Assembly: GCA_963714145.1 (NCBI GenBank)
Contig: OY970235.1
Location: forward strand, 9,946,137 to 10,010,136
Direction: 5' to 3'
Source of the DNA: an uncultured Actinomycetota bacterium
GTDB taxonomy: Bacteria > Actinomycetota > Actinomycetes > Mycobacteriales > CADCTP01
Length of the DNA stretch: 64,000 bases
The notes beneath the pieces were generated by a model, which searched no databases, was not told where the DNA came from, and saw nothing but the letters and a program-made list of their open reading frames with translations. Shown piece after piece: positions 3,647-44,495 of the stretch; the stretch's first letter is position 1; every line of letters starts with the position of its first letter. The translations under genes were made by a program, and so were the position numbers.

Positions 3647-4498
3647 GTCCTAGCCGCAGGTCAACCACCCGGTGTCGGCGTGCCCGCCGCGGAGCTGGCC
3701 CCCCTCACCTCGGCCATCCTGGCCGACTCGCTGGACGAGGTCGGTCGGCGCCACCAGGTGTTACGGCCCGGGTTAGGCCCGGTCTGGCCCGGTGCCCACG
3801 CACTCGGCCGGGCCCGCACGGTCCGCTTCGCGCCCGTCGACACCGGGTCCGTCGGGACCGGGTCCGTCGACACCGGGTCCGTCGACACTGGGTCCGTCGG
3901 GACCGTGTCGGTCGGGACCCCGCCGGTCGAGGTTGCCCCGGGCGAGGCTGTCCCGGTCGATACCGTGCCCGTCGATACCGTGCCCGTCGATACCGTCGCG
4001 AACGCCGTCGATATCGACCCGCCCGGCGCCGATCCGTACGGCCCGATGATGAGCTTCGTGGACGGGCTGGAACCGGGCGACCTGGCCGTGGTCGCGACCG
4101 GCCCGGACGACCGCACCGGCTACTGGGGTGAGCTGTTCTCCGCCGCCGCGATCGGCCGCGGCGCGGTCGGCACGATCTGCGACGGCCCGGTGCGCGACGT
4201 GGACAAGGTCGCCGCGCTGGGCTACCCGTTGTTCGCCGCCGGCACCCGTCCGGTCGACTTCGCCGGCCGGATGCGGGTGGTCGAGACCGGCGCCCCGGTC
4301 GAGCTGGCCGGCGTCGTGATCACCCCGGGCGACCTGGTGCTGGCCGACCGGGACGGCGTGGTGGTGGTGCCCCGGGACGTGATCGACCCGGTGCTGGAGC
4401 GGGCGCTGCGCCGGGCCGGCGCCGAACGCGACGTGCTGCGCGCGCTGCTGGACGGTGCTTCGCTGCGCCAGGTCTGGCAGCGCTGGGGGGTGCTGTGA
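3629..4498 (+). CDS. RraA-family / HMG-aldolase-like protein with a repeat insertion
   Basis: TSAILADSLD...GRARTVRF...GYWGELFSAAA...RGAVGTICDGPVRD...PGDLVLADRDGVVVVP. Confidence 0.85.
   Translation: MDEQAFVLAAGQPPGVGVPAAELAPLTSAILADSLDEVGRRHQVLRPGLGPVWPGAHALGRARTVRFAPVDTGSVGTGSVDTGSVDTGSVGTVSVGTPPVEVAPGEAVPVDTVPVDTVPVDTVANAVDIDPPGADPYGPMMSFVDGLEPGDLAVVATGPDDRTGYWGELFSAAAIGRGAVGTICDGPVRDVDKVAALGYPLFAAGTRPVDFAGRMRVVETGAPVELAGVVITPGDLVLADRDGVVVVPRDVIDPVLERALRRAGAERDVLRALLDGASLRQVWQRWGVL
3834..4000 (+). repeat. In-frame 15-bp tandem repeat (about 11 degenerate units; VDTGS/VGTGS/VDTVP)
   Basis: cgtcgacaccgggtc-type units read directly in the sequence. Confidence 0.85.
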
Positions 4499-4794
4499 CA
4501 CCGGTCCACCCGCAGTTGCTCCGCCTCCGGGAGGCTGACGACGTGCTGATCGCGGCCCGCCCGATCGCGGCCGGCGAGCAGCTGCAACTGGGTGCCGGCA
4601 CCGAGGTCGCCGCTGCCGCCGACATCCCGACCGGGTTCAAGGTGGCCGCGCGCGACCTGGCCGCCGGCGACATCGTGCACCGGCTGGGCATGCCGATCGG
4701 CCGGGCCACCGTACCGATCGGGCGAGGTGAGGTGGTGCACGTGCACAACCTGGAGAGCCAGTACCTGCGGACGCACCGGCGGGGGGAGGCGTGA
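4495..4794 (+). CDS. SAF-domain small subunit of a UxaA-family dehydratase
   Basis: DDVLIAARPI...IPTGFKVAARDL..GDIVHRLGMPIG.AT..I..GEVVHVHNLES; stop/start overlaps on both sides. Confidence 0.85.
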   Translation: MTPVHPQLLRLREADDVLIAARPIAAGEQLQLGAGTEVAAAADIPTGFKVAARDLAAGDIVHRLGMPIGRATVPIGRGEVVHVHNLESQYLRTHRRGEA

Positions 4795-6017
4795 TGCGGG
4801 GCTACCCGCGCAGCGACGGCCGCAAGGGCATCCGCAACGTGATCGTGGTGGCCTACCTGGTCGAGTGCGCGCACCACGTGGCCGGCCGGATCGCGGCGGC
4901 GTTCGACGACGACGTGCAGGTGATCGGCTTCGGCGGCTGCTACCCGAACGACTACGCCGCGATGATGCTGCGCCGGCTGACCACGCACCCGAACGTCGGC
5001 GGTGCGCTGCTGGTCTCGCTCGGCTGCGAAGGCTTCGACCGGGCCGGGCTGGAGGCGGCGGTGCGAGCCACCGGCCGGCCGGTCGCGACCCTGGTGATCC
5101 AGCAGGAGCACGGCACCCGCAGCACGATCGAGCGCGGCCGGGCCTGGGTGGCCCAGGCCCGGGCCCAGCTGGACGCGCTCGAGCAGGTGCCGGTCGAGCT
5201 GTCCGACCTGGTGGTCGGCACGATCTGCGGCGGTTCGGACAGCACCAGCGGGATCACCGCGAACCCGGCGGTGGGGGTCGCGTTCGACCGGCTGGTCGCG
5301 GCCGGTGGCACCGCGATCTTCGAGGAGACCGGCGAGCTGATCGGCTGCGAGTACATGATGCGCGACCGCGCGATCACCCCGGAACTGGGCGCCGAACTGG
5401 TCGGCGCGGTGCAGAAGGCGGAGGCGTACTACACCACGCTCGGGCACGGCAGCTTCGCCCCGGGCAACGCCGAGGGCGGGCTGACCACCATCGAGGAGAA
5501 GTCGCTCGGCGCGTACAGCAAAAGCGGGAGCGCGCCGATCAGCGGGCTGCTCAAGCCGGGCGACCGGGCCCCCGCCCCGGGCCTGTACCTGCTCGACGTG
5601 GTGCCGGACGGGGAGGTCCGCTGGGGCTTCCCGAACATCAACGACAACGCCGAGGCGGCCGAGCTGATGGTCTGCGGTGCGCAGCTGATCCTGTTCACCA
5701 CCGGGCGCGGCTCGGTGGTCGGCTCGGCGATCTCGCCGCTGGTGAAGGTGTGTGCGAACCCGCAGACCTACCGGGCGATGGCCGAGGACATGGACGTCGA
5801 CGCCGGCGCGGTGCTGGAGGGGCGGTCCACTTTGGACCAGGTCGGTGCCGAGATCCTCGACCTGATCCGCCGGGTGGCGGCCGGCGAGCAGACCGCCAGC
5901 GAGGCGATGGGGCACCAGGAGTTCGTCCTGACCTACAAGGCTTTCGAGCCGGTCGGCCCGAGCTGTCTACCGCTGACCGTCCTTACCGGACCAGATACTT
6001 CCAGGAGCGCGACATGA
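4791..6017 (+). CDS. UxaA-family (altronate/galactarate-type) dehydratase, large subunit
   Basis: GYPRSDGRKGIRN, HPNVGGALLVSLGCE, CGGSDSTSGITANP, GNAEGGLTTIEEKSLG, FTTGRG. Confidence 0.92.
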   Translation: MMRGYPRSDGRKGIRNVIVVAYLVECAHHVAGRIAAAFDDDVQVIGFGGCYPNDYAAMMLRRLTTHPNVGGALLVSLGCEGFDRAGLEAAVRATGRPVATLVIQQEHGTRSTIERGRAWVAQARAQLDALEQVPVELSDLVVGTICGGSDSTSGITANPAVGVAFDRLVAAGGTAIFEETGELIGCEYMMRDRAITPELGAELVGAVQKAEAYYTTLGHGSFAPGNAEGGLTTIEEKSLGAYSKSGSAPISGLLKPGDRAPAPGLYLLDVVPDGEVRWGFPNINDNAEAAELMVCGAQLILFTTGRGSVVGSAISPLVKVCANPQTYRAMAEDMDVDAGAVLEGRSTLDQVGAEILDLIRRVAAGEQTASEAMGHQEFVLTYKAFEPVGPSCLPLTVLTGPDTSRSAT

Positions 6018-7378
6018 AAGCATCGATCCGGCAGCGGACGGCCCGACGCTGGCTGACCGCGTCCGGTGCCGCTGTGCTGGCCGTCGCGCTCGCCGCGTGC
6101 GGCTCGTCCACCGGTGCCGGCGGCAGCACCGGCAGCGGCGAGCAGCGGGATAATGCGAGCGACTCCGGCGGCCCGATCACGGTCTGGGTGGACGCGCCCC
6201 GGGTGCCGGCGGTGGAGGCGTTCAAGAAGGCCCACCCGGAGATCCAGCTCACCATGAACACGATCGACGGCAACGTCGGCAGCACCGCGCTGCAGCAGAA
6301 GTTCTCCCTGTTCAACCAGGCCGGCAAGGGCTGGCCGGACGCCATCTTCTTCCCGTCCAACGACGACATCGCCTGGGCGACCAGCTCGAAGATCGACTTC
6401 GCCCGCGACCTGAGCACCGACATGAAGGACACGATCTCGGGCTACTCGAGCGCCTCGATAGCGCCCTGCGTGATCGACAACAAGATCCGGTGCGTGCGCA
6501 ACGACGCCGCCCCGGACGTGTTCTGGTACAACGCCGAGCTGTTCAAGAAGTGGAAGTACACCCCGCCGACCAGTTGGGACGAATACGGCACGCTGGCGGT
6601 GAAGATCGCCCAGGAGCACCCGGGCTACCTCAGCGGCATGCTCGGCGACGCCTACGCCCCGGACCGCTACCTCTGGGCCAGCGGCTGCCCGACCAACGAC
6701 CGGCTGTCCGAAACCAAGGTGCACATCGACCTGACCGATCCGCTCTGCGGCCGGGCGGTGTCGCTTGTGGACAAACTGGTCGCGGCCAAGGCGCTGTCCC
6801 CGGTCGGCATCTTCGACCCGGCCGCGGCCAAGGTCGGGCAGAAGCTGGCGATGAGCCCGGGCGCGGTCTGGTGGGGCAACTACCTGTTCCGCGACACCTG
6901 GAAGATCCCGGCCAGGCAGATGACCGCGACCGCGCCGCTGAAGTGGTCCGACGACGCGCAGGGGTACACCGGTGACGAGGGCGGCGGCCTGTGGGGCGTC
7001 TCCAGCCACATCAAGGGCAAGCAACTGGAGAACACGCTGGTGTTCGCCAAGTTCGTGGCCAGCGACCCGGCCTGGCAGGTGGAGCTGACCACCGGCCTGC
7101 CGGCGTACGGGCCGATCCAGGACGAGTGGCTGCAGAAGCAGTCCAGCGTCGGCTACCTGGCCGACTTCGAGACCTCGGCCAAGGCGTTCAAGGCCGCCGT
7201 CGACATCGTCCGGCCGAAGCACGCCTACATGCTCTACAACACCGGCGGCATCTGGACCCAGACCGTCACCCCGCTGCTGACCCAGGGCAAGGATCTCAGC
7301 GCCGGCTGGGACGCCTTCGGCAAGCGGCTGAACAACGAGGCGAAGACGTTCGGGTACCAGGTCGTCACGACCTCGTAG
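6014..7378 (+). CDS. Carbohydrate ABC transporter substrate-binding lipoprotein
   Basis: ATG 6014 with AGGAG RBS; lipobox LAAC; C-terminal part of ORF 4592..7378. Confidence 0.85.
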   Translation: MKASIRQRTARRWLTASGAAVLAVALAACGSSTGAGGSTGSGEQRDNASDSGGPITVWVDAPRVPAVEAFKKAHPEIQLTMNTIDGNVGSTALQQKFSLFNQAGKGWPDAIFFPSNDDIAWATSSKIDFARDLSTDMKDTISGYSSASIAPCVIDNKIRCVRNDAAPDVFWYNAELFKKWKYTPPTSWDEYGTLAVKIAQEHPGYLSGMLGDAYAPDRYLWASGCPTNDRLSETKVHIDLTDPLCGRAVSLVDKLVAAKALSPVGIFDPAAAKVGQKLAMSPGAVWWGNYLFRDTWKIPARQMTATAPLKWSDDAQGYTGDEGGGLWGVSSHIKGKQLENTLVFAKFVASDPAWQVELTTGLPAYGPIQDEWLQKQSSVGYLADFETSAKAFKAAVDIVRPKHAYMLYNTGGIWTQTVTPLLTQGKDLSAGWDAFGKRLNNEAKTFGYQVVTTS

Positions 7379-7433
7379 CGGTAGCGGCAGGCCGGGGCAG
7401 GGGCGGGCAGCGGCAGCGGCAGGGGTAGCGAGC

Positions 7434-8408
7434 ATGAGGCTGGACGGGACGACAGACCGGGACGTCGAACAGCCGCGCCCGGCCCCAGCCGCGGCGGCCG
7501 GGCGGGCCGCGCCGGCCCGGCCGCGCCGCCGCGGCTACGCGTCGCGGCACGAGTCCCGCGGCGCCGCGATCCTGGTCGCGCCGTACGTCGTGCTGCTGCT
7601 GGTCGGCGGGCTGATCCCGGCCGGCTACGCGATCGTGAAGAGCCTGCAGGACGAGACCGGCACCAGGTTCGGCGGGCTGACCAGCTTCCAGCGGGTCACC
7701 AACGACTTCCGGTTCGTGGATACGTTCACGAACATCCTCACCGTGATGGCGGTCTGGCTGCCGATCATGATGATCGGCGTGGTCGGCCTGGCGCTGCTGG
7801 TGCACGCGACGCCGAACCGGTTCGGCGCCACCGTGCGGTTCATCTACTACCTGCCCGGGGCGCTGGCCGGCATCGCCAACTTCATGCTCTGGCTCTACCT
7901 GCTCAACCCCGGCCAGAGCCCGCTGGACTTCCTCTGGCGCGGCTTCGGCTACGAGACGCTCAACGAGGTGGCCAGCCCCGGCAACCTGCCGGTGGTGCTG
8001 GCCGCGATGCTGTTCTTCCAGGGCGCCGGCACCTGGCTGGTGGTCGTCAACGGCGGCCTGAACGGCATCTCCGACGACGTGCTGGAAGCGGCCACTTTGG
8101 ACGGTGCGAACGCCTGGCAGGTGGCCTGGCGGGTGAAGCTGCCGATCATCCGGCCCTGGCTGGGCTACATGGCGCTGCTGAACATCGCGTACGGCTTCCA
8201 GCTGTTCCTGGAGCCGCAGGTGCTCAGCCAGGCCACGCACGGGCTGATCTCGCCGCAGTACACGCCGAACCAGCTCAGCTACACCTACGCCTACCAGATC
8301 CTCGACCTGCCGGCGGCCGCCGCGATGTCCGTCCTGCTGCTGCTCATCACGCTGGTCCTCGGGCTGCTCGTGGTGTTCCGCAGCGGGCTGTTCGCCGAGG
8401 AGAGGTGA
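7434..8408 (+). CDS. Carbohydrate ABC transporter permease
   Basis: Multiple TM segments; EAATLDGA (EAA loop). Confidence 0.9.
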   Translation: MRLDGTTDRDVEQPRPAPAAAAGRAAPARPRRRGYASRHESRGAAILVAPYVVLLLVGGLIPAGYAIVKSLQDETGTRFGGLTSFQRVTNDFRFVDTFTNILTVMAVWLPIMMIGVVGLALLVHATPNRFGATVRFIYYLPGALAGIANFMLWLYLLNPGQSPLDFLWRGFGYETLNEVASPGNLPVVLAAMLFFQGAGTWLVVVNGGLNGISDDVLEAATLDGANAWQVAWRVKLPIIRPWLGYMALLNIAYGFQLFLEPQVLSQATHGLISPQYTPNQLSYTYAYQILDLPAAAAMSVLLLLITLVLGLLVVFRSGLFAEER

Positions 8409-9349
8409 CCGGCGTGACCAGCACCGACGTCCCGGTGGGTTCCCGGGCCGCGACCAACGCCCGGGCCGGCTGGTCGCCCGGCCGGCTGGCCCGGCTGGTC
8501 ACGCTGGCCGCGGTCGCGTTCCTGTTCGCGTACCCGATCCTCGGCTTCCTGCTCACCGGCTTCCGGGCGCAGACCGACACCGGGGTCGCCGGCCGCGGCC
8601 CGCTCGGTGTCACCGGCGTCTCGCTGGGCAATGCCCGGGACAGCTGGCGTACCGTGCTCGACTTCAACAACGGCGTGTTCCTGCACTGGATCGTCAACTC
8701 GCTGGTGGTCTCGATCGGCGGCGCGGTGCTCGCGGTGGTCGCCGGTATCCCGGCCGGGTACGCGATGGCCCGGCTGCGGTTCCGCGGCCGCCGGCTGCTG
8801 CGGTTCCTCACCCTGGTGCTGATGGTGATGCCGAACACCGTGCTGGTGATCCCGTTGTTCCTGGAGGTCAGCGCGGTCGGCGCGATCGACCAGCTGTGGC
8901 CGGTGATCGTCATCATGGGCTTCTTCCCGTTCGGTGTGTACCTGGCCTACATCCACTTCGCCACCGCGCTGCCGTACGAGCTGGTCGAGGCCGGCCGCGT
9001 GGACGGGCTGAGCGAGCTGGGCATCTTCTTCCGGGTCGCGGTGCCACTGTCCAATCAGGCCGTCGCGCTGACCGCGTTCTTCGCGTTCGTGGCCGCCTGG
9101 ACGAACTACTTCCTGCCGCTGGTGCTGCTGCCGCTGACCGACCACGCGACGGTCTCGGTCGGGTTGCAGCAGCTGATCGGCAGCAGCCCGCTGTTCGACC
9201 CGACCACCGCCGCCGGGCTGGACGTGAAGCTCTACATGCCGCAGCTCTCGCTGGCCACGTTCGTTACGATGCTGCCGGTGATCGTGGTGTTCATCGGCGC
9301 GCAGAAGTACCTGATGCGCGGCCAGACCGTCGGCGCGGTCAAGGGATGA
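8405..9349 (+). CDS. Carbohydrate ABC transporter permease
   Basis: EAGRVDG loop, NSLVVS...AGYAMAR, WTNYFLP. Confidence 0.9.
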   Translation: MTGVTSTDVPVGSRAATNARAGWSPGRLARLVTLAAVAFLFAYPILGFLLTGFRAQTDTGVAGRGPLGVTGVSLGNARDSWRTVLDFNNGVFLHWIVNSLVVSIGGAVLAVVAGIPAGYAMARLRFRGRRLLRFLTLVLMVMPNTVLVIPLFLEVSAVGAIDQLWPVIVIMGFFPFGVYLAYIHFATALPYELVEAGRVDGLSELGIFFRVAVPLSNQAVALTAFFAFVAAWTNYFLPLVLLPLTDHATVSVGLQQLIGSSPLFDPTTAAGLDVKLYMPQLSLATFVTMLPVIVVFIGAQKYLMRGQTVGAVKG

Positions 9350-34493: not shown

Positions 34494-34646
34494 CGCCGGC
34501 CCCCGGGCCCGGGCCGGGCTCCGGCCTGGCCCCGGGCCCGGGGCGGGCTCTGTCGGGTTATGCCGGATCGGTCGGCATGAGCCTGGTTGTGGCCGGCCTG
34601 TGGGATGTTGACCGTCCTGGGTGCGGCGACAGGGAGGCGGGCGGCC

Positions 34647-35351
34647 ATGGCAGTGATCCACCGAGCCTTGGACGGCCGGCAGTTCCAGCTCGCCGGCCAG
34701 TTGGATCTCGGGCAGCCGGCCACCTCGGTGCTCGGGGTGTCCGCGGCCGGCCGGCTGCACGAGTTCACCGCCGGGCTGGCGGCGCTCGGCGCCGAGGTCG
34801 CGGCCGGGCTGGGTGGCTCCGGGCCGGGCGCGGGCTTCGACGAGGAGCTGAGCTACCAGGGCGGCGCGTTGCGGATCGGCCGGCTGCACCCGTACGACCC
34901 GCAGATCAAGCTCACCGAGGATCTGCTCGTGGCCTGCTGGCAGGGCGAGCGGCACTGCCTGGTCACCCAGCTGTACGCGGCCGGCACGACCGACCTGCTC
35001 GGCCTGCTGCGCACGCTGCGGATCGAGGAGCACCCGGACGGGCTGGCCGTCCGGCCGGCCCTGGCCGGCGGCAGCGAGTTCACCGGGCCGGCCACCGTGA
35101 TCAAGCAGGTGCCGGCGCTCGGCCTGCTGGAGATGTCGCCGCTGACCAGCGAGCACGTCAAGACGCTGCCGTCCTGGGGCGGCCTGCGCACACCGGCCGG
35201 CGAGCTGTTCGCGGACAACCTCACCGACGGCAAGCCGTACTACGTGCTGGCCGCCCCGGACACCTGGACCACCCTGGTACCGGCCGCCGGCCTGGCCGGC
35301 GACCGGCTGGCCGGGCAGGTCGGCCGGCTGCGCATCCAGCTGGTCGGCTGA
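34647..35351 (+). CDS. Hypothetical soluble protein, first gene of the Mau-like operon
   Basis: ATG 34647 with AGGGAGG RBS; host-like codon use; 3 bp from the next gene. Confidence 0.7.
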   Translation: MAVIHRALDGRQFQLAGQLDLGQPATSVLGVSAAGRLHEFTAGLAALGAEVAAGLGGSGPGAGFDEELSYQGGALRIGRLHPYDPQIKLTEDLLVACWQGERHCLVTQLYAAGTTDLLGLLRTLRIEEHPDGLAVRPALAGGSEFTGPATVIKQVPALGLLEMSPLTSEHVKTLPSWGGLRTPAGELFADNLTDGKPYYVLAAPDTWTTLVPAAGLAGDRLAGQVGRLRIQLVG

Positions 35352-35354
35352 ACC

Positions 35355-36047
35355 GTGGCCGCGGTGCTCGGGAGCGTCGCCGGCTACGCGGTGCTGCTGA
35401 CGCTGGTCTGCGCCGGCGCGGGGCACCTGGCCAGGCCGGGGACGTTGCGGTCGGCGTTGGTCACGCACGGGGTGCTGCCGGTGCCGGGTCTGGTCGCGGT
35501 CGCGGTGCCGGTCGTCGAGCTCGGGCTGGGCGCCGCCGGGGTGGCCGGGCTGTTCGACCGCCCGGTGCTGCTGGCCGTCGCGCTGGCCGGCGCGGCCGTG
35601 CTGCTGGCCGGGTACGCCGGCTACGGCTGGCGGGTGCTCGCGGCCGGGGCCGGCGGGCCGTGCGGCTGTTCCCGGCATGAGCTGCCGATGTCCGGCTGGG
35701 TGCTCGCCCGGGCCGGCGGGCTCGCCGGGCTGGCGGTGCTCGGCCTGACGCTGACCGGCTCGGTGCTGTCGCCGCGGGCCGTCGACAGCCGGTTCTCCCT
35801 GGTGCTGCTGGCCGCGGCCACCTTCAGCCTGCTGCTCTGGCAGCTGCCGGCGGCCATGTACGACCCCACGCCGGCGGTAGCCGCCGGCCGGGCCACGGTG
35901 GCCGGCCCCGCCAGGCCGGCCGCCGGCCCGGCCGGCCCCGCCGGGTCTGGCGGATCCGACCGAGTGGTGGGCGGACCGGCTCTGTTGGGGATGCCGGCGC
36001 AGCCGGCCCGCGCCGGCCAGGCGGACCACCGGGAGGTGCCGGTATGA
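35355..36047 (+). CDS. MauE/DoxX-family redox-associated membrane protein
   Basis: TM helices, P..EL.LG segment and GPCGCS (MauE CGC motif). Confidence 0.82.
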   Translation: MAAVLGSVAGYAVLLTLVCAGAGHLARPGTLRSALVTHGVLPVPGLVAVAVPVVELGLGAAGVAGLFDRPVLLAVALAGAAVLLAGYAGYGWRVLAAGAGGPCGCSRHELPMSGWVLARAGGLAGLAVLGLTLTGSVLSPRAVDSRFSLVLLAAATFSLLLWQLPAAMYDPTPAVAAGRATVAGPARPAAGPAGPAGSGGSDRVVGGPALLGMPAQPARAGQADHREVPV

Positions 36048-36601
36048 GCTTCCAGACCAGCGCGCTGATCCTGAGCTGGGTGGCGATCCTGCTGCTGGCC
36101 CTGGTGGTGTCCGGGCTGGTGCGGCAGGTGCACGCCCTGTCATCCGGGCTGGTGCGGCCGGCCGGGCCGGGTGGGTCCACCGGGCCGGTCGGGCTCGCCC
36201 CGGGGGCGCTCGCACCCGGCCTCGATCTGCTCGGCACCGACCGGTCCGGGCCGGTGCTGCTGCTGTTCCTCAGCGCCGACTGCCACACCTGCTCGGCCGT
36301 CCTCACCGAGGCCGCCCACCTCACCGGCTCGGCCCACCTCACTGGCTCGGCCCACCTCACCGGGGCCGCCCAGGATGCCGGCGACCTGTCCGTCCGGGCG
36401 CTGTACGCCGGGCCGGCGCCGGCGACCGACCTGGGGATCGGCGTGTACGGCGGCCAGGCCGAGCTGTTCGAGCGGTACGACGCGATCGCGACCCCGTTCG
36501 CCGTCCTGGTCGACCCGTCCGGCCGGGTGGTCCGCTCCGAACCCGTCGGTTCCCCGGCCGCGCTACGGACCCTGCTCGACCGGGTCGTCCAGGAGGCATG
36601 A
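36044..36601 (+). CDS. MauD-like membrane-anchored thioredoxin-fold protein
   Basis: N-terminal TM ...LVRQV; GL.PG..AP; LFLSADCHTC (CxxC); TPFAVLVDPSG.V. Confidence 0.8.
   Translation: MSFQTSALILSWVAILLLALVVSGLVRQVHALSSGLVRPAGPGGSTGPVGLAPGALAPGLDLLGTDRSGPVLLLFLSADCHTCSAVLTEAAHLTGSAHLTGSAHLTGAAQDAGDLSVRALYAGPAPATDLGIGVYGGQAELFERYDAIATPFAVLVDPSGRVVRSEPVGSPAALRTLLDRVVQEA
36314..36367 (+). repeat. 3 x 18-bp in-frame repeat (AHLTGS) right after the CxxC helix
   Basis: gcccacctcaccggctcg / gcccacctcactggctcg / gcccacctcaccggggcc. Confidence 0.85.
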
Positions 36602-37554
36602 TGAACACGCTGATCCCACCGCTGCGGGCGGCTGACGCGCCGGCGGCCGAGCCGGCGGCGCCCCGGGAGCCGGCGGCGTCCCGGGCCGAGCTGCGGCCGA
36701 TCACCTGGTCACCGGTGCAGCGGCGGACCGTGCTGCGGGCCGGAGCCGCGATCGGCACCGCGATCGGGATGGCCGCGATCGGCGTGTTCCCGGCCGCCCG
36801 GCGGGCCCGCGCGGACGGCTTCGACATCTACCCGAGCTGCCCGTCCTACGCGACCGATCACAACTGCTCGCCCGGCTGCGGCCCGAGCACGATCTTCGGC
36901 GACTCCTGCAACACGTCCGGGCCGAACCTGGGCTTCCACAAGGACGACGGCGTCACCTGGATGCTGCGGCCGAACCAGTGCTTCTCGAACATGTACGACG
37001 GCTGGATCTGGCGGTACCAGAACGCCTGCGGCACCTGCGCCTGCTTCGTCGAGCGCCGCTGCCACGACGGCTACCGGATGACCAGCGCCGGCTGGGTGCG
37101 CTCGATCTGCCGGTGGAACACCGACTGCGGCTGCCAGGGCGCGGTGCCGTGGCCCACCGTCCAGCGGGGCAACTCCGGCCCGAACGTGTACGCGGTGCAG
37201 CACCTGCTGAACTTCCGCGGCGCCACCCTCACCGCGGACGGCGCGTTCGGCCCGCTCACCGAAACGGCGGTGAAGAACTTCCAGAGCGGCAACGCGCTGC
37301 CACCGACCGGCATCGTGGACACCACCACCTGGCCGGTGCTCGTGGTCACCGTGCGCAGGTCGGACAGCAACGAGGCGGTCCGCGCCGCCCAGCGCGAGCT
37401 GAACAAGTGGGGCTACCAGCTGACCGTGGACGGCGTCTTCGGCGCGCTCACCGACGGCGCGATCCGCGACTTCCAGCGGCAGAACGCGCTCACCGTGGAC
37501 GGCGTGATCGGTGCCAGCAGCTGGCGCACGCTCACCGGCGGAGCCGGCGTGTGA
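36598..37554 (+). CDS. Tat-exported protein: 12-Cys domain plus two peptidoglycan-binding (PG_binding_1) domains
   Basis: QRRTVL Tat motif and ARA cleavage site; 12 Cys in about 100 aa; two ...DG.FG..T..A...FQ....L..(T/D)G.(V/I)...(T/S)W repeats. Confidence 0.82.
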   Translation: MMNTLIPPLRAADAPAAEPAAPREPAASRAELRPITWSPVQRRTVLRAGAAIGTAIGMAAIGVFPAARRARADGFDIYPSCPSYATDHNCSPGCGPSTIFGDSCNTSGPNLGFHKDDGVTWMLRPNQCFSNMYDGWIWRYQNACGTCACFVERRCHDGYRMTSAGWVRSICRWNTDCGCQGAVPWPTVQRGNSGPNVYAVQHLLNFRGATLTADGAFGPLTETAVKNFQSGNALPPTGIVDTTTWPVLVVTVRRSDSNEAVRAAQRELNKWGYQLTVDGVFGALTDGAIRDFQRQNALTVDGVIGASSWRTLTGGAGV

Positions 37555-38354
37555 CCATTCCGGCCGGCCAGCCGGCCGAGCCGGCGGGGGAGCCGGCGCG
37601 GGCGGTGGGCCGCCGGCGGGCCGGCGTGGCGGTGTGGCGGTGGGCGACGGACCCGATCCTGCCGGTGCTGCTGCTGGCCCCGGCCGCGGTACTGGCGGCG
37701 GCCCGGGTGCCGGTGCTGACCTGGGCGGTGCTCGGCGGGCTGGCCGGCTACTCGCTGTCCGGCTCGGTTTGAACCCGTAACAGCGCGCTGGCGCTGTCCC
37801 CGCCCGGGCGGCGGGATCGGAGGTTGCCGTCGGCGCCGCTGGCGGTGTTCACGGTCGGGCTGCTGCTCGGTGGCCTGCTCAGCGGGCTGGTGCTGGCCGT
37901 GGCCGGCGGCCTGCTGGCGCCGCTGCCGCTGGCCGGCCGGCAGGTCGCCGTGCTGGCGGTCGCGCTGCTCGGGCTGCTGCGCGAGGCGGGGTTGATCGTG
38001 ATCCCGCTGCCGCAGAACAGCCGGCAGATCGGCCAGGAGGTGCTGCGCAACCCGATCCGCGGCGCGCTGCAGTTCGGCTTCGAGCTGGGCACCGGGGTGC
38101 GTACCTATGTCTCGGCCACCGCGCCGTACGTGCTGGCGCTCGGGGTGCTGCTGGCCGGTTCGCCGCGGGCCGCGGTGCTGGCCGGGCTCGGCTTCGGCGC
38201 CGGCCGGGCGCTCACCCCGCTGGTGCGCCAGGCGTCGGCCGCGCCGGCCAGTTGGGACGCGCTGCTGACCACCCGGCTGCGGGCCATCGCGCTGCTGGCC
38301 GGGGCCGCCGCCCTGATCGCGTTCGCGGTGCTGTTCGCGCTCAGTCGCCGGTGA
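37551..38354 (+). CDS. MauF-like membrane protein containing an in-frame TGA at 37770-37772 (codon 74)
   Basis: GTG 37551 overlaps the upstream stop; the frame continues through TGA into ORF 37824..38354 (LPQNSRQI...GFELGTGVRTY). Confidence 0.7.
37780..37797 (+). promoter_or_regulatory. Hairpin ACAGCGC-GCTG-GCGCTGT 7 nt after the in-frame TGA (SECIS-like or readthrough element)
   Basis: Perfect 7-bp stem, 4-nt loop starting with G; function inferred. Confidence 0.4.
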
Positions 38355-38862
38355 CGCCGTCGATCCGCTCGCGCAGCAGGTCGGCGTGCCCGTTGTGGCG
38401 GGCGTACTCCTCGATCATGTGCACATAGACCCAGCGCACGTTCATGTCCTTCTTCGAGCGCTGGTGGGTGAACGTCTCGTCCAGCGGGTGCCCGGCCGCC
38501 GCCGCCCGGGCCAGCTCCAGTTCGGCCTCGTACGCGGCGAGGTCCGCCGCGGCGTCCGCGCCGTCCACCTCGTCGAAGTCGGTGTCGTCGGTGCCGTCGC
38601 GGCTGTAGACGTAGCCGACCTGCTCGCCGCCGACCCGGCGCCGGAACCAGCCGCGTTCCACCTCGGTCATGTGCCGCACCAGGCCGAGCAGCGACATGCT
38701 GGACGGTTCGGCGCTACGCTGCTTGAGCTGCTCCGCGGTCAACCCGGCGCACTTGAACAGCAGCGTCTGCCGGTGGTAGTCGAGCCAACTGTCCAGCATC
38801 GGCCGTTCGGCTTCGACCAGTGGTGGCCGGCTGCGGGCAGTCTCCGGGACGGTCCAGGTCAT
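38341..38862 (-). CDS. DinB / DUF664 family protein
   Basis: LLGLVRHMTEVE..W, HMIEEYARHNGHADLLRE.IDG. Confidence 0.9.
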   Translation of the reverse strand: MTWTVPETARSRPPLVEAERPMLDSWLDYHRQTLLFKCAGLTAEQLKQRSAEPSSMSLLGLVRHMTEVERGWFRRRVGGEQVGYVYSRDGTDDTDFDEVDGADAAADLAAYEAELELARAAAAGHPLDETFTHQRSKKDMNVRWVYVHMIEEYARHNGHADLLRERIDGVTGD

Positions 38863-38923
38863 GCGTGGCATCCTGCCGGCTGGCGGCTCGGCCGGCACCA
38901 GGTTTTCGTGCCAGGATGCGGCC

Positions 38924-41923: not shown

Positions 41924-42233
41924 GCTCCGCTCCTCCGCCCCGCGAGTTCGTCAGCCGTCGCGAGTTGGTCCAGCCTGCCAGGCCGCGGCCGGCGCTCGCA
42001 CGGCGGTCGGTCGAGCACTCTAGGTAGTCATTGATGCCGTCAGTGCGACGACTGCGCCGTTTGGCGCAGGTTTCCGGCCGCTCCACGCGCGGCCGTTGCC
42101 GACCAAGTGGATCAGGGTGGGATTCTTGCCGGAGCAATCAGGTTCGTGCGCTCGGTGGCCGGGGCCTCACGGCGCCGCTGCCGGCACTCAGGGCCGGCTC
42201 GCGATGCTGCGCCGGCCGGACGAGGATCGGACG

Positions 42234-44495
42234 ATGGGAAAGCGACGCGGAAGCCGCGAGAAGCGGTTCGACCGCTCCAACTGGGCCAGCCTCGTCCCGT
42301 TCGGGATCGGCGAGCAGAAGCCGAACAACTACCTCGAGCTGTACAAGGCCGCCCGGGACAACCGCGATCAGCTCGGCTACGCCTGGCGGATCCTGCGCGA
42401 GGGCACCTGCGACGGCTGCGCGCTGGGCACCACCGGCCTGCGCGACTGGACGATGGACGAGGTCCACCTGTGCAACATCCGGCTGCGCCTGCTCCGGCTG
42501 AACACGATGCCGGCGCTGGACCCGGCCCTGCTGGTGGACGCGGCCGCGCTGGTCGGCAAGCGCGAATCGGAGCTGCGCGAGCTCGGCCGGATCCCGTTCC
42601 CGATGGTGCGCCGGCGCGGTGATCCGGGGTTCCACGAGGTCTCCTGGGACGAGGCGCTGGACCTCACCGCGAGCCGGGTGGCCGGCACCGCGCCGGGCCG
42701 GCTCGGCTTCTACCTGACCAGCCGGGGGATGCCGAACGAGAACTACTTCGCGGCCAGCAAGGCGGTCCGCGCGATTGGCACGAACTCGATCGACAACGCC
42801 GCCCGGGTCTGCCACTCGCCGAGCACGTTCGGGCTCAAGGGTGCGCTCGGGGTGGCCGCGACGACCTGCTCGTACACCGACTGGATCGGCTCGGATCTGG
42901 TCGTGTTCGTCGGCTCCAACGTGGCGAACAACCAGCCGGTCGCGATGAAGTACCTCTACCACGCGAAGAAGGCCGGCACCAAGGTCGCGGTCATCAACAG
43001 CTACCGCGAGCCCGGCATGGAGCGGTACTGGGTGCCGTCCAATGTGGAGAGTGCGGTCTTCGGCACCAAGGTGACCGACCGGTTCTTCGCCGTGAACACC
43101 GGCGGCGACATCGGTTTCCTGAACGGCGTGCTCAAGCACCTGCTGGCCGAGGGCTGGGTGGACGAGCGGTTCATCGCCGAGCACACCACCGGGTTCGATG
43201 AGCTGGCCGCCGCGCTGGCCGAGCAGAGCTGGGAGCGGCTGGAGGCGCTGTCCGGAGCGTCCACTTCGGACATGCGGGAGATGGCCGAACTGATCGCGGG
43301 CGCCCGCACCGCGGTGTTCGTCTGGAGCATGGGCATCACCCAGCACGAGTTCGGTGAGGACAACGTCCGGGCGATCATCAACCTGGCCCTGTCCAAGGGT
43401 TTCGTCGGCCGGGACAAGTGCGGGCTGATGCCGATCCGCGGCCACTCCGGCGTGCAGGGCGGCGCCGAGATGGGCGCGTACTCGACCGTGCTGCCCGGCG
43501 GGGTGCCGATCGACGCGGCTTCGGTGGCCCGGTTCGAGCAGCTGTGGGGGTTCCCGATCCCGGCGCAGCGCGGGATGACCGCACCGGAGATGATCGACGC
43601 GGCGCACGACAACAGCCTGGACGTGCTGGTCTCGGTCGGCGGCAACTTCCTGGACGTGCTGCCCGACCCGAAGTACTGCAAGCAGGCGCTGCAGCGCATC
43701 CCGCTGCGGGTGCACATGGACCTCTGCGTGTCCAAGCAGATGCTGGTGGACCCGGCCGACACGGTGCTGCTGCTGCCCGCGCAGACCCGGTACGAGCTGG
43801 TCGGCGGCTGCACCGAGACCACCACCGAGCGGCGGATCATCTTCAGCCCGGAGGTGGCCGGCCCGCGGATCCCGGGGGCCCGGCCGGAGTGGTGGGTGTT
43901 CGGCGAGCTGGCCGCCCGGGTCAGGCCGGAACTGGCCGCGGCGGTGCGCTATCCCGGCACGCCGGAGATCCGCGCGGACATCGCCCGCGCGGTGCCGGCG
44001 TACGCGGGCATCCAGCATCTGGCCAAGCAGGGTGACAACTTCCAGTACGGCGGCAGCCATCTGTGTTTCGGCTGGCAGTTCCCCACCCCGGACGGCAAGG
44101 CCCACTTCTCCGCGCTGACGCCGCCGGACACCGAGCGCCCGGACGGCACCTTCATGGTCGCGACCCGGCGCGGCAAGCAGTTCAACAGCATGGTGTACGA
44201 GCACCGGGACGCGCTCACCGGCGCGGAGCGGGACGCGGTGCTGATGAACAAGCTGGACGCCGCCCGGCTCGACCTCGCCGACGGCGACCGGGTGCGGCTG
44301 ACCAGCCCGGTCGGCTCGTACCAGGGCACCGTCCGGCTGGCCGCGGTGACCCCGGGGAACCTGCAGGTGCACTGGCCGGAGGGCAACGTGCTGATCGACC
44401 GGACCCGGCGCTCGCCGCAGGCCGGGATCCCCGACTACAACGCGGTCGTCACGGTCGAGCGGGTGACCACGCCGAGCGCACCGGCCCGGGTGTGA
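42234..44495 (+). CDS. FdhF/YdeP-family molybdopterin oxidoreductase (Cys ligand)
   Basis: CDGCALGT...HLC, YLTSRG..NE, NSIDNAARVCHSPS, PIRGHSGVQG, RGKQFNSM. Confidence 0.92.
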   Translation: MGKRRGSREKRFDRSNWASLVPFGIGEQKPNNYLELYKAARDNRDQLGYAWRILREGTCDGCALGTTGLRDWTMDEVHLCNIRLRLLRLNTMPALDPALLVDAAALVGKRESELRELGRIPFPMVRRRGDPGFHEVSWDEALDLTASRVAGTAPGRLGFYLTSRGMPNENYFAASKAVRAIGTNSIDNAARVCHSPSTFGLKGALGVAATTCSYTDWIGSDLVVFVGSNVANNQPVAMKYLYHAKKAGTKVAVINSYREPGMERYWVPSNVESAVFGTKVTDRFFAVNTGGDIGFLNGVLKHLLAEGWVDERFIAEHTTGFDELAAALAEQSWERLEALSGASTSDMREMAELIAGARTAVFVWSMGITQHEFGEDNVRAIINLALSKGFVGRDKCGLMPIRGHSGVQGGAEMGAYSTVLPGGVPIDAASVARFEQLWGFPIPAQRGMTAPEMIDAAHDNSLDVLVSVGGNFLDVLPDPKYCKQALQRIPLRVHMDLCVSKQMLVDPADTVLLLPAQTRYELVGGCTETTTERRIIFSPEVAGPRIPGARPEWWVFGELAARVRPELAAAVRYPGTPEIRADIARAVPAYAGIQHLAKQGDNFQYGGSHLCFGWQFPTPDGKAHFSALTPPDTERPDGTFMVATRRGKQFNSMVYEHRDALTGAERDAVLMNKLDAARLDLADGDRVRLTSPVGSYQGTVRLAAVTPGNLQVHWPEGNVLIDRTRRSPQAGIPDYNAVVTVERVTTPSAPARV

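What the first reader, a model, noticed from the sequence alone, without database searches (positions are those of the whole stretch)
37551..38354. In-frame UGA plus hairpin in the MauF-like gene: candidate selenocysteine or programmed readthrough
Seen: the GTG at 37551 overlaps the upstream stop like every other gene in the operon. The frame reads ...GGLAGYSLSGSV-TGA(37770)-TRNSALALSPPG... and continues without a shift into the 176-aa membrane ORF, whose annotated TTG start has GGAGG directly abutting it (poor spacing). A perfect 7-bp hairpin with a G-first tetraloop starts 7 nt after the UGA (loop 14 nt from the UGA, slightly closer than the usual bacterial SECIS spacing). From recollection, MauF proteins have a conserved Cys (S-x-x-S-P-C-G) after the first TM segment, which is where this UGA falls. 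Inference: Sec or Cys/Trp readthrough at a redox-active position, which would make this a new selenoprotein or recoding family in a disulfide-maturation system.
Basis: partly seen in the sequence, partly recalled or inferred. Interest (0 to 1): 0.85.

Follow-up and report, generated by a model that had tools for sequence, protein, structure and literature searches.

The report
Hidden membrane selenoprotein gene family
The apparent stop codon inside this membrane-protein gene is almost certainly read as selenocysteine, which reveals a widespread, so far unannotated selenoprotein family in soil actinomycetes such as Streptomyces and Micromonospora. In many of these genomes the family sits next to the selenocysteine machinery genes and may be the reason that machinery is kept.

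Summary
GTG 37551 to TGA 38354 is one frame, interrupted only by TGA 37770, and two hairpins follow that codon.

- **Conservation of the TGA:** it is present at the identical site in all 166 homologous loci where the site is visible (89 genomic, 77 metagenomic, 40-100% protein identity). The flanking motif is G[YF]x[LI]SGS[VT]-U-[ST]xNSA.
- **Cys forms:** two metagenomic homologues carry Cys instead; one was verified as TGT.
- **Database state:** gene callers cut every database copy to a 150-190 aa "hypothetical protein".
- **Sec machinery:** the genome has tRNA-Sec, selA, selB and selD. In 151 Streptomyces species the gene co-occurs with selA (9/10 vs 18/141, p=5e-7), usually 2-8 kb away.
- **One protein:** AlphaFold models the read-through protein as a single confident fold (pLDDT 90.5).
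- **RNA signal:** both hairpins are kept by compensatory changes. The second has a GGU-type loop like the formate dehydrogenase SECIS.
- **No Sec-FDH:** about 60% of carriers, including this genome, lack a TGA-containing formate dehydrogenase (FDH) of the FdnG type.
- **Novelty:** the family is absent from Pfam, NCBIfam and the 2026 list of 119 prokaryotic selenoprotein families.

Verdict: a new selenoprotein family, with confidence about 0.9. Its role is inferred only: a membrane redox partner of MauE-like and thioredoxin-like proteins that matures a Cys-rich wall-binding protein.

The parts
37551..38354 (+). Full selenoprotein gene: 267 codons with Sec (U) at codon 74, then stop TGA 38352-38354. 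A polytopic membrane protein.
   Evidence: Single frame. Homologues in 166 loci are collinear across the TGA. The AF2 model of the read-through product has pLDDT 90.5 and pTM 0.87, with residues 30-70 at 97-98.
37551..37553 (+). GTG start codon, overlapping the stop of the upstream gene (GTGA)
   Evidence: An overlapping start of this kind occurs in 59 of 88 homologous loci.
37770..37772 (+). In-frame TGA, proposed selenocysteine codon (U74)
   Evidence: Invariant in 83 unique genomic and 76 metagenomic sequences. It is TGT (Cys) in metagenomic homologue L091. It aligns to the TGA of a DsbD_2-like neighbour of selD in G038.
37780..37797 (+). Hairpin 1: 7 bp with loop GCUG, starting 7 nt after the UGA (the core 6 bp that is conserved in homologues spans 37781-37796)
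   Evidence: It is kept in two alternative registers tied to the Ser codon family (AGC or UCN). Pairing is 95.6% and 94.8% in the right register and 35-43% in the wrong one.
37799..37815 (+). Hairpin 2: 6 bp with loop CGGGC (AGGUU, GGUCU or GGUCC in relatives). Candidate SelB-binding part of the SECIS.
   Evidence: 96.6% of cells are paired in 123 unique sequences, against 42-48% for slid controls. Pair 31-45 occurs as UG 58, UA 43, GC 13, CG 6. The loop resembles the FdhA SECIS loop GGUCU of relative G002.
37824..37826 (+). TTG used by mechanical ORF calling as the start of the 176-aa fragment; most likely an internal Leu codon
   Evidence: It is CTG in the closest relative. The first in-frame start after the TGA lies 7 to 68 codons downstream across 86 loci. 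Database copies begin at scattered positions.
36598..37554 (+). Upstream gene: twin-arginine (TAT-like) signal, a Cys-rich domain of about 110 aa with invariant cysteines, and two PG_binding_1 domains. Proposed client protein.
   Evidence: Pfam PF01471 at 1e-32. Present directly upstream of the U gene in 80 of 80 loci. Invariant Cys columns in alignment A4. The fold of the Cys-rich part could not be predicted. The TAT assignment rests on reading the RR motif in the sequence.
36044..36601 (+). Membrane-anchored protein with a CxxC motif (CHTC), probably thioredoxin-like
   Evidence: Present in 80 of 80 loci. The only family match is a weak Redoxin hit (E 0.099). There is no NCBIfam hit at all, so none to a MauD model.
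35355..36047 (+). MauE-family membrane protein with a conserved CGC motif
   Evidence: Pfam PF07291 at 1.5e-14, 54.8 bits, above the cut-off of 27. Found in the same position in relatives.
34587..35351 (+). First gene of the conserved five-gene operon; a 254-aa protein of unknown family (start codon uncertain)
   Evidence: Present in 77 of 80 loci in the same order. No hit in Pfam, NCBIfam or PDB sequences.

Best explanation
Window 37551-38354 is one gene for a polytopic membrane protein of about 267 aa. Codon 74, UGA, is decoded as selenocysteine by the genome's own SelA, SelB, SelD and tRNA-Sec system.

The insertion signal lies inside the coding sequence directly after the UGA. It consists of two tandem hairpins. 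Hairpin 1 sits 8-9 nt after the UGA. Hairpin 2 sits 27 nt after it and has a GG(U)-containing apical loop like that of formate-dehydrogenase SECIS elements. I infer that hairpin 2 is the SelB-binding element and that hairpin 1 compacts the unusually long spacer.

The protein is the last gene of a conserved five-gene operon:
1. a protein of unknown family,
2. a MauE-family membrane protein,
3. a membrane-anchored CxxC protein,
4. a TAT-exported, Cys-rich, peptidoglycan-binding protein,
5. the selenoprotein.

The single Sec sits at the start of a short helix after the first membrane span. That is the position where a distant DsbD_2-like relative also has Sec in an S-P-U-G motif. No second conserved Cys exists in the protein. 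The inferred mechanism is therefore as follows. The selenol works as a membrane-embedded redox relay. It forms transient selenenyl-sulfide bonds with partner proteins (the CxxC protein and/or the CGC motif of MauE). This relay forms or reshuffles the many disulfides of the Cys-rich wall-binding client.

Shown here:
- the conserved UGA and the reading frame across it,
- the Sec/Cys pair,
- co-occurrence and physical linkage with the sel genes,
- the conserved hairpins,
- the single predicted fold,
- the operon.

Inferred only:
- actual Sec insertion,
- which hairpin binds SelB,
- the redox role and its direction,
- the client.
For: **Conserved UGA.**
- One TGA lies at the identical aligned site in every homologue: 9 loci in relatives and a paralogue in the same genome, 80 of 80 loci from species genomes, and 76 of 80 metagenome loci, the other four being cut by contig ends.
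- Third-codon positions vary most on both sides of the TGA, so the frame is under coding selection straight through it. Entropy by codon position is 0.43/0.26/0.83 upstream and 0.29/0.40/0.70 downstream.

**Not two genes.**
- There is no conserved restart codon; the first start lies 7-68 codons downstream.
- Of the 150 best matches among 1.84 billion representative proteins, 148 start just after the site.
- The two that span the site have Cys, one confirmed as TGT.
- AF2 models the read-through protein with pLDDT 90.5 and pTM 0.87, with the N-terminal piece packed in.

**Sec machinery and linkage.**
- The genome has tRNA-Sec, selD, selA and selB.
- selA is present in 48 of 50 carrier genomes.
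- Among 151 Streptomyces species, 27 have selA and 10 have the gene, with an overlap of 9 (Fisher p=4.7e-7). The gene lies 2-8 kb from selA in 8 of those 9.
- selD lies within 4 kb in 25 of 80 loci.
- In G028 the gene abuts selB-selA-selD.

**Hairpins.**
- Hairpin 2 is 96.6% paired, and pair 31-45 occurs as UG, UA, GC and CG.
- Hairpin 1 switches register together with the Ser codon family.
- Synonymous sites in the stems are invariant while those in the loops vary.
- The FdhA SECIS of relative G002 has the same GGUCU loop.

**Distant relative.** hhalign places U on U of the S-P-U-G protein that lies between selB and selD in G038 (96.4% probability, E 1.3e-9).
Against: - No experiment shows selenium in the protein.
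- The GGU loop of hairpin 2 lies about 14 nt further from the UGA than in E. coli fdhF or the G002 FdhA (G37/38 against G23).
- Hairpin 1 sits slightly closer than a canonical SECIS, so the signal is atypical. No Rfam model matches it.
- The folding energy of the window's own segment is not unusual for this G+C content (z = -0.94).
- One Streptomyces carrier (a very fragmented assembly) and two other incomplete carriers show no selA.
- The functional part is weakly grounded.
  - No family model hits the protein.
  - Canonical CcdA shows no profile similarity.
  - The CcdA fold match is not significant (E 0.19, TM 0.33-0.37).
  - The CxxC protein has only a marginal Redoxin hit.
  - The client's Cys-rich domain has no recognisable fold.
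Confidence: 0.88

Rival explanations
1. Programmed readthrough of UGA by something other than the Sec system, for example near-cognate insertion of Trp, Cys or Arg. The downstream hairpins would stimulate it, giving a mixture of a 73-aa peptide and a full-length protein.
For: The hairpin spacing is not that of a textbook bacterial SECIS. No Rfam SECIS model matches. Hairpins directly after a stop codon are known to stimulate readthrough (general knowledge).
Against: - Presence of the gene tracks selA (9/10 vs 18/141 in Streptomyces, p=4.7e-7; 48/50 carriers).
- It lies within a few kb of selA, selB or selD in many genomes.
- The rare sense variants have Cys, the usual counterpart of Sec.
- The hairpin 2 loop matches the SelB-type GGU loop of FdhA in a relative.
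Confidence: 0.06
2. Two separate genes: a small 73-aa membrane peptide that ends at TGA 37770, and an independent membrane protein of about 176 aa that starts downstream. The two would merely be kept in the same frame.
For: This is how all public annotation treats the locus: the best 120 database homologues are 150-189 aa 'hypothetical proteins'. A GGAGG precedes the TTG at 37824.
Against: - The same frame and the same site are kept in 166 of 166 loci.
- The TTG is CTG in the nearest relative.
- The first possible restart codon lies 7-68 codons downstream and often inside the next membrane helix.
- The 15 codons after the TGA show a coding-type substitution pattern and invariant residues N77 and S78.
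- The Cys forms are single ORFs.
- AF2 packs both parts into one confident fold.
- GGAGG with zero spacing is a poor ribosome-binding site.
Confidence: 0.03
3. Sec is inserted, but the protein is not a disulfide-relay component. It would be a transporter or trafficking protein for selenium, sulfur or a metal that serves the neighbouring sel genes, with Sec as a ligand. This would be comparable to the Sec-containing YedE/YeeE, MerT or SO_0444-type proteins.
For: - The gene is linked to selD and selA.
- Invariant charged and polar residues lie in membrane segments (N77, R88, E178, R184, R219).
- There is no second conserved Cys.
- One UniRef name ('Sap, sulfolipid-1-addressing protein') and the best fold hit, CcdA, both point to a superfamily that, from general knowledge, also contains many small-solute and metal transporters.
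- Selenoprotein transporters of this sort are listed in PMC13188914.
Against: - The gene is always the last of an operon with a CxxC protein, usually a MauE protein, and a Cys-rich exported protein (80/80). That fits protein thiol chemistry better.
- In the window's own genome neither copy is near the sel genes.
- Linkage of a client selenoprotein to sel genes is common and is not specific to selenium transport.
Confidence: 0.2

Closest known systems
Bacterial selenoproteins with an intragenic SECIS, for example the formate dehydrogenase alpha subunit (FdhA/FdnG, TIGR01553)
   Same: In both, an in-frame UGA is followed directly by an RNA hairpin with a GGU-type apical loop. Both depend on selA, selB, selC and selD, have Cys-containing homologues, and are truncated by gene callers. 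FdhA of relative G002 has UGA-N12-GUCCCC-GGUCU-GGGGAC.
   Different: Here the GGU-loop hairpin lies about 14 nt further downstream, and a second conserved hairpin fills the spacer. The protein is an integral membrane protein with no cofactor domain.
CcdA / DsbD transmembrane electron transporters (DsbD and DsbD_2, PF13386; CcdA structure 5VKV). From recollection this group includes MauF of methylamine-dehydrogenase clusters.
   Same: It is a polytopic membrane protein with a redox-type residue just after the first membrane span, encoded next to thioredoxin-like and MauE genes. CcdA is the best, though non-significant, fold match. A homologue at 96% hhalign probability has S-P-U-G and a sub-threshold DsbD_2 hit.
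   Different: PF13386 does not hit it, even at E<=1. It shows no profile similarity to a canonical CcdA. It has one Sec and no second conserved Cys, so the two-cysteine relay of CcdA cannot operate. The motif is SGS[VT]-U-[ST]xNSA, not SPC.
The mau accessory genes mauE/mauD/mauF of methylamine dehydrogenase clusters
   Same: A MauE-family protein (PF07291, 54.8 bits), a membrane-anchored CxxC protein, a polytopic membrane protein and a TAT-signal Cys-rich exported protein lie in one operon.
   Different: No MADH light-chain or heavy-chain homologue was detected. The CxxC protein has no NCBIfam hit, so it matches no MauD model. The client carries two peptidoglycan-binding domains.
Membrane selenoproteins in the 2026 catalogue (PMC13188914): YeeE/YedE (GUxSG), putative mercuric transport protein MerT (C/SxxU), SO_0444 family Cu/Zn efflux transporter (UxC), rhodanese/DsbD fusion-like TsoB (UxxxxU)
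   Same: All have Sec in an integral membrane or transporter-like protein, and some are linked to selenium genes.
   Different: None shares the motif, a family model or the operon. The NCBIfam models for those families do not hit this protein.
   Same: It describes the same kind of cassette (MauE/MauD/MauF-like plus a Cys-rich secreted protein) with an in-frame TGA in the third gene. It resembles the G038 cassette seen here.
   Different: It comes from a different lineage and probably a different subfamily. It is an unchecked AI note, not a publication.

Membership tests
Bacterial selenoprotein (Sec decoded at UGA) | In-frame UGA conserved among homologues, with coding conservation on both sides | tested here: met
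   TGA at the same site in 166 of 166 loci where the site is visible. Codon-position entropy pattern on both sides.
Bacterial selenoprotein (Sec decoded at UGA) | Complete Sec machinery (selA, selB, selC, selD) in the genome | tested here: met
   tRNA-Sec at genome 5876477-5876571. selD 371.7 bits. selA 390.4 bits. selB 245.1 bits with its neighbours in the frame, just over the cut-off.
Bacterial selenoprotein (Sec decoded at UGA) | Homologues with Cys aligned to the UGA | tested here: met
   P0089 has TGT at the site (L091). P0009 is a Cys form called by a standard pipeline. Only 2 of the 150 best representatives are Cys forms.
Bacterial selenoprotein (Sec decoded at UGA) | SECIS hairpin directly downstream of the UGA, with a G-containing apical loop at a suitable distance | tested here: inconclusive
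   Two hairpins are conserved with compensatory changes, and one has a GGU-type loop. However, the loop of hairpin 1 is about 14 nt and that of hairpin 2 about 33 nt from the UGA, neither being the E. coli spacing. bSECISearch is not available here, and Rfam gives no match.
Bacterial selenoprotein (Sec decoded at UGA) | Presence of the gene restricted to Sec-decoding genomes | tested here: met
   Streptomyces: 9 of 10 carriers against 18 of 141 non-carriers have selA, p=4.7e-7. Carriers overall: 48 of 50.
Bacterial selenoprotein (Sec decoded at UGA) | Selenium demonstrated in the polypeptide | not testable with these tools
   Needs 75Se labelling or mass spectrometry.
DsbD_2 / CcdA-type membrane thiol-disulfide transporter (the family in which MauF is placed, from recollection) | Match to the family model PF13386 above its gathering score | tested here: not met
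   No hit in 53 members. No hit at the U loci in a six-frame search at E<=1. Only the distant G038 homologue reaches 21.6-22.4 bits, below the cut-off of 24.9.
DsbD_2 / CcdA-type membrane thiol-disulfide transporter (the family in which MauF is placed, from recollection) | Two conserved redox cysteines, one in each half of the protein | tested here: not met
   U74 is the only invariant Cys/Sec column in 53 sequences.
DsbD_2 / CcdA-type membrane thiol-disulfide transporter (the family in which MauF is placed, from recollection) | CcdA-like fold | tested here: inconclusive
   CcdA 5VKV is the top Foldseek hit but is not significant (E 0.19, probability 0.80, TM 0.33-0.37). hhalign to a canonical CcdA finds nothing.
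mau (methylamine dehydrogenase) maturation cluster | MauE-family protein in the operon | tested here: met
   PF07291, 54.8 bits against a cut-off of 27.
mau (methylamine dehydrogenase) maturation cluster | MauD-type thioredoxin-like protein | tested here: not met
   No NCBIfam hit at E<=0.1. Only Redoxin at E 0.099 and a marginal PDB match. A CxxC motif and a membrane anchor are present.
mau (methylamine dehydrogenase) maturation cluster | Methylamine dehydrogenase subunits (MauA light chain, MauB heavy chain) as clients | tested here: not met
   The Cys-rich neighbour hits only PG-binding families and no PDB sequence. No MauB-like gene is seen in the operon.

The most novel reading that the evidence does not exclude
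This family, rather than formate dehydrogenase, may be the selenoprotein that keeps the whole selenocysteine trait alive in a large share of Sec-decoding Streptomyces, Micromonospora and related actinomycetes. It may also work by a mechanism not yet described. That mechanism would be a single membrane-embedded selenol, with no partner cysteine, that relays redox equivalents (or a selenium or sulfur species) across or within the membrane. Its insertion would be directed by a two-hairpin SECIS whose SelB-binding loop lies about 33 nt from the UGA.
Probability: 0.3. Interest if true: 0.85.

Novelty: new member of a known kind. Interest (0 to 1): 0.72.

Why it matters
**Annotation.** Hundreds of genomes of heavily studied, industrially important actinomycetes carry this gene as a truncated 'hypothetical protein'. 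It was found in 295 species genomes, and the family has 967 clusters at 50% identity. Recognising the Sec codon corrects that annotation. It also adds a family to the catalogue of prokaryotic selenoproteins.

**Why the machinery is kept.** In actinobacteria, formate dehydrogenase is usually taken to be the only selenoprotein; PMC13449736 states this for mycobacteria. This family gives a candidate reason why about 60% of its carriers, including this genome, keep selA, selB, selC and selD without a TGA-containing FdnG-type formate dehydrogenase.

**Biochemistry.** The family offers an integral-membrane selenoprotein with a single Sec, in a defined operon with a plausible client. The two-hairpin insertion signal can be used to test the spacing rules of SelB.

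Tried and rejected
1. **Pfam, NCBIfam, PDB-sequence and Rfam searches** of the protein, its alignment and the RNA. No family was found, so no name can be borrowed.
2. **Direct membership in DsbD_2.** PF13386 searched in six frames does not hit the loci, and hhalign to a canonical CcdA finds nothing.
3. **Internal two-fold repeat** (GYSLSGSVUTRN against GFELGTGVRTYV, which would place R184 opposite U74). hhalign of the two halves gives no support, so this remains a visual impression only.
4. **A three-way junction** closing both hairpins, as in the minimum-free-energy fold. The closing helix is paired in only 33% of sequences, so it was rejected.
5. **The Cys-rich neighbour as a methylamine-dehydrogenase light chain.** There is no sequence hit, and AF2 gives pLDDT of about 33 for that domain. 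A fold search would be meaningless and was not run.
6. **Sequencing error or a recent nonsense mutation.** This is excluded by conservation in 166 loci.
7. **A Sec-type formate dehydrogenase in this genome as the reason for the machinery.** None was found. The nearest hits have Cys, including one inside the window.
8. **Literature searches for a prior description** (selenoprotein with MauE, MauF, Streptomyces or Micromonospora; the review tables). Nothing was found. This covers only the held open-access library.
Full report
**1. The observation.**
- GTG at 37551 overlaps the stop of the upstream gene (GTGA).
- The frame runs to TGA at 37770-37772 (...GGLAGYSLSGSV*TRNSALALSPPGRRDRR...) and continues without a shift to the stop at 38352-38354.
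- Mechanical ORF calling gives only a 176-aa ORF from TTG 37824, with GGAGG abutting it.
- A 7-bp hairpin (acagcgc gctg gcgctgt) lies at 37780-37797.
- The local fold contains both hairpins, but its energy is not unusual for this G+C content (z = -0.94).

**2. The TGA is conserved, not an accident.**
- *Close relatives.* A six-frame search of 61 related genomes with the read-through protein found homologues in six genomes besides the window's own, each with exactly one TGA inside the match. It also found a second copy in the window's own genome, at 2527202-2527915.
  - In nine of the ten matches the TGA sits in the same motif, G[YF][SA]xSGS[VT]-TGA-[ST][RQ]NSA.
  - The tenth is a distant relative, treated in section 8.
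- *Species genomes.* A scan of one genome per prokaryotic species returned 295 loci. The pattern that retrieved them lies elsewhere in the protein, so the scan was blind to the codon. All 80 loci kept have TGA at the site. They come from Streptomyces, Micromonospora, Kitasatospora, Actinophytocola, Actinoallomurus, Stackebrandtia, Rhizocola and metagenome-assembled genomes.
- *Metagenomes.* A scan with the paralogous subfamily gave 80 more diverse loci (40-70% identity). Of these, 76 have TGA at the site and the other four are cut by contig ends.
- *Coding signature.* Among 83 unique genomic sequences all three bases of the codon are invariant. On both sides the third codon positions are the most variable: entropy 0.43/0.26/0.83 upstream and 0.29/0.40/0.70 downstream. 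The frame is therefore under protein-coding selection straight across the stop.

**3. It is one gene.**
- The first in-frame ATG, GTG or TTG after the TGA lies anywhere from 7 to 68 codons downstream in 86 unique loci.
- The window's TTG is CTG in the nearest relative.
- HMMER against 1.84 billion representative proteins found 967 relatives (413 at E<=1e-10). Of the best 150, 148 are 100-250 aa fragments whose match begins at query residue 77 or later, just after position 74.
- The best 120 hits in the 5.8-billion-protein collection are all 150-189 aa, have no Pfam domain, and are named 'hypothetical protein' by NCBI and JGI.
- Two representatives span the site with Cys. P0089 was traced to its contig and the codon is TGT, with both hairpins still recognisable. 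P0009 is a Cys form from a JGI gene call.
- AlphaFold2, run on an alignment of 53 read-through sequences with C in place of U, gives mean pLDDT 90.5 and pTM 0.87. Residues 30-70, upstream of the TGA, score 97-98. The two 'halves' are therefore modelled as a single packed membrane fold.
- A start codon overlapping the upstream stop occurs in 59 of 88 loci.

**4. The Sec machinery is present and linked.**
- The window's genome (one 10.08-Mb contig) has the following:
  - tRNA-Sec at 5876477-5876571,
  - selD at 5875399-5876319,
  - selA at 5878059-5879312,
  - selB at about 5833774.
- All seven genomes with matches in the first search have selA and selD at full score, plus a selB-type match. That selB match is over the family cut-off in four of them.
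- In G028 the order is selB-selA-selD and then the selenoprotein gene.
- Of 50 further carrier genomes, 48 have selA. The two without it are a fragmented assembly and a small metagenome-assembled genome. In many carriers selA lies within 1-6 kb of the locus.
- selD is within 4 kb in 25 of 80 loci.
- In an even sample of 151 Streptomyces species:
  - selA occurs in 27;
  - the gene occurs in 10, each copy with one TGA;
  - nine genomes have both, and the tenth carrier is an assembly of more than 1300 contigs;
  - Fisher's exact test gives p = 4.7e-7.
- This co-occurrence is the strongest argument that the UGA is read by the Sec system and not by another kind of readthrough.

**5. The RNA signal.** I compared 123 unique 63-nt segments from both subfamilies. 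Positions are numbered from the U of UGA as 1.
- *Hairpin 2* (nt 30-36 paired with 40-46) is paired in 96.6% of cells, against 42-48% when partners are slid.
  - Pair 31-45 occurs as U-G 58, U-A 43, G-C 13 and C-G 6.
  - Pairs 30-46 and 35-41 also show rare double changes.
  - Its loop reads AGGUU (41), GGUCU (34), CGGGU/C (23) or GGUCC (10).
- *Hairpin 1* exists in two registers that follow the serine codon family.
  - With AGC it pairs 12-17 with 22-27 (95.6% paired).
  - With UCN it pairs 12-17 with 24-29 (94.8% paired).
  - Each type placed in the other's register pairs at only 35-43%.
  - This amounts to a whole-helix compensatory replacement.
- *Synonymous sites* in the stems are invariant (third bases of Ala at +21 and Ser at +30). 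Those in the loops vary by 1.2-1.4 bits.
- *On the smaller genomic alignment* the pair-counting tool gave 92.8% and 99.3% pairing but little formal covariation, because those sequences are very similar.
- *Comparison with a known SECIS.* The TGA-containing formate dehydrogenase of relative G002 has UGA-N12-GUCCCC-GGUCU-GGGGAC, with G23 and U24 as in E. coli fdhF (the E. coli numbering is from general knowledge).
  - Hairpin 2 therefore looks like a SelB-binding stem-loop placed about 14 nt further downstream.
  - Hairpin 1 fills the spacer.
- That hairpin 1 shortens the effective distance is my inference.
- No Rfam family matches the region.
- The three-way junction of the minimum-energy fold is not conserved.

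**6. Context.** The gene is the last of a five-gene operon kept in the same order in 77-80 of 80 loci.
- A 254-aa protein of unknown family (34587-35351).
- A MauE-family membrane protein with a CGC motif (35355-36047; PF07291, 54.8 bits).
- A membrane-anchored CxxC protein (36044-36601; Redoxin only at E 0.099).
- A protein with a twin-arginine signal, a Cys-rich domain with invariant cysteines and two PG_binding_1 domains (36598-37554).
- The selenoprotein.

The second copy in this genome has the same layout without MauE and without the PG-binding domains. The Cys-rich domain has no detectable relative of known structure, and AF2 could not model it.

**7. Is this the reason the Sec trait is kept?**
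- The window's genome has no FdnG-type formate dehydrogenase with TGA. The nearest molybdopterin enzymes have Cys, and one of them is in the window.
- Among 48 carriers with Sec machinery:
  - 22 have no such enzyme;
  - 8 have a form with no in-frame stop;
  - 18 have a TGA form.
- In roughly 60% of carriers the machinery is therefore not explained by this formate dehydrogenase.
- Other selenoprotein families were not surveyed, so 'the only selenoprotein' remains unproven.

**8. What kind of protein is it?**
- No Pfam, NCBIfam or PDB-sequence match exists for the protein or for any of 53 members.
- The tenth match of the first search lies in G038, between selB and selD, next to MauE-like and CxxC genes.
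  - It reads ...STWSP-TGA-GESML...
  - It has a sub-threshold DsbD_2 hit (22.4 bits against 24.9).
  - hhalign relates it to the family at 96.4% probability (E 1.3e-9) and puts U on U.
- The best fold match of the AF2 model is the electron transporter CcdA (5VKV), but it is not significant (E 0.19, TM 0.33-0.37).
- A canonical CcdA shows no profile similarity, and PF13386 does not hit the loci.
- U74 is the only invariant Cys/Sec column. The other invariant polar residues are S70, S72, N77, S78, R88, E178, T181, R184, T185 and R219.
- The protein therefore resembles the DsbD/CcdA kind in position and context but fails the membership tests. The two-cysteine relay cannot apply.
- My best mechanistic guess is a single-selenol relay that forms selenenyl-sulfides with the CxxC and/or MauE partners to mature the Cys-rich wall-binding client.
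- A transporter or trafficking role for selenium, sulfur or a metal is a live alternative.

**9. Is it known?**
- The 2026 review of the prokaryotic selenoproteome lists 119 families. None has this motif, this family or this operon.
- NCBIfam release 20 has no model for it.
- Public records call the fragments hypothetical proteins.
- Literature searches found no description.
It agrees with this reading but is not independent evidence.

**Verdict.** This is a real, conserved and unannotated selenoprotein family: a new member of a known kind. Its insertion signal and its chemistry may be unusual.

Noticed in passing
Own genome outside the window, C1:2525288-2527936 (L010 covers 2525702-2529415): A second, paralogous cassette: a 272-aa unknown protein, a CxxC (CGLC) membrane-anchored protein, a 189-aa TAT-signal Cys-rich protein without PG-binding domains, and a selenoprotein paralogue (SGST-TGA-SRNSA, 43% identical). 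It has no MauE gene.
   Followed up: partly
window 42735-43256, inside ORF 42096-44495 (+): A molybdopterin oxidoreductase related to formate dehydrogenase, with Cys (NAARVCHSPS) where FdhA of relatives has Sec. The genome has no TGA-containing FdnG-type enzyme.
   Followed up: partly
L100 (G038:C13:9500-18500), about 3690-8716 on the minus strand: Between selB and selD lies a different Mau-like cassette: selD, a MauE-like protein (CGC), a CxxC protein, a DsbD_2-like protein with S-P-TGA-G, a 150-aa unknown protein, and a TAT-signal Cys-rich protein. This is probably a second Sec-containing subfamily.
   Followed up: partly
window about 36311-36370, inside the CxxC protein gene: An in-frame tandem repeat encoding AHLTGS three times (TEAAHLTGSAHLTGSAHLTGAAQD). 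Relatives such as L029 and L083 lack it.
   Followed up: no
L091:175-915 (ENA metagenome contig): The Cys (TGT) form keeps both hairpins. Its C-terminal third diverges from the family consensus (IRSVRAVAVRIHRRCGVWPG...), as if frameshifted. It may be a decaying copy or carry an assembly error.
   Followed up: no
Own genome, C1:3429390-3429487 and three other sites: ARAGORN calls a 98-nt 'tRNA-Pyl (cta)' and three tRNAs of undetermined type. These are likely false positives or odd tRNAs. No pyl genes were looked for.
   Followed up: no
window 38341-38898 (-): A convergent downstream gene of the mycothiol S-transferase / DinB family (PF04978, E 3e-47). This is another thiol-chemistry gene next to the operon, but it is not conserved in the Streptomyces loci inspected.
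   Followed up: no
Carrier genomes G065, G079, G080, G081, G093, G095, G097, G102: These Sec-decoding carriers have an FdnG-type formate dehydrogenase with no in-frame TGA in the N-terminal part, apparently a Cys form. Sec in this enzyme therefore seems to have been lost or was never present, while the machinery stays.
   Followed up: no
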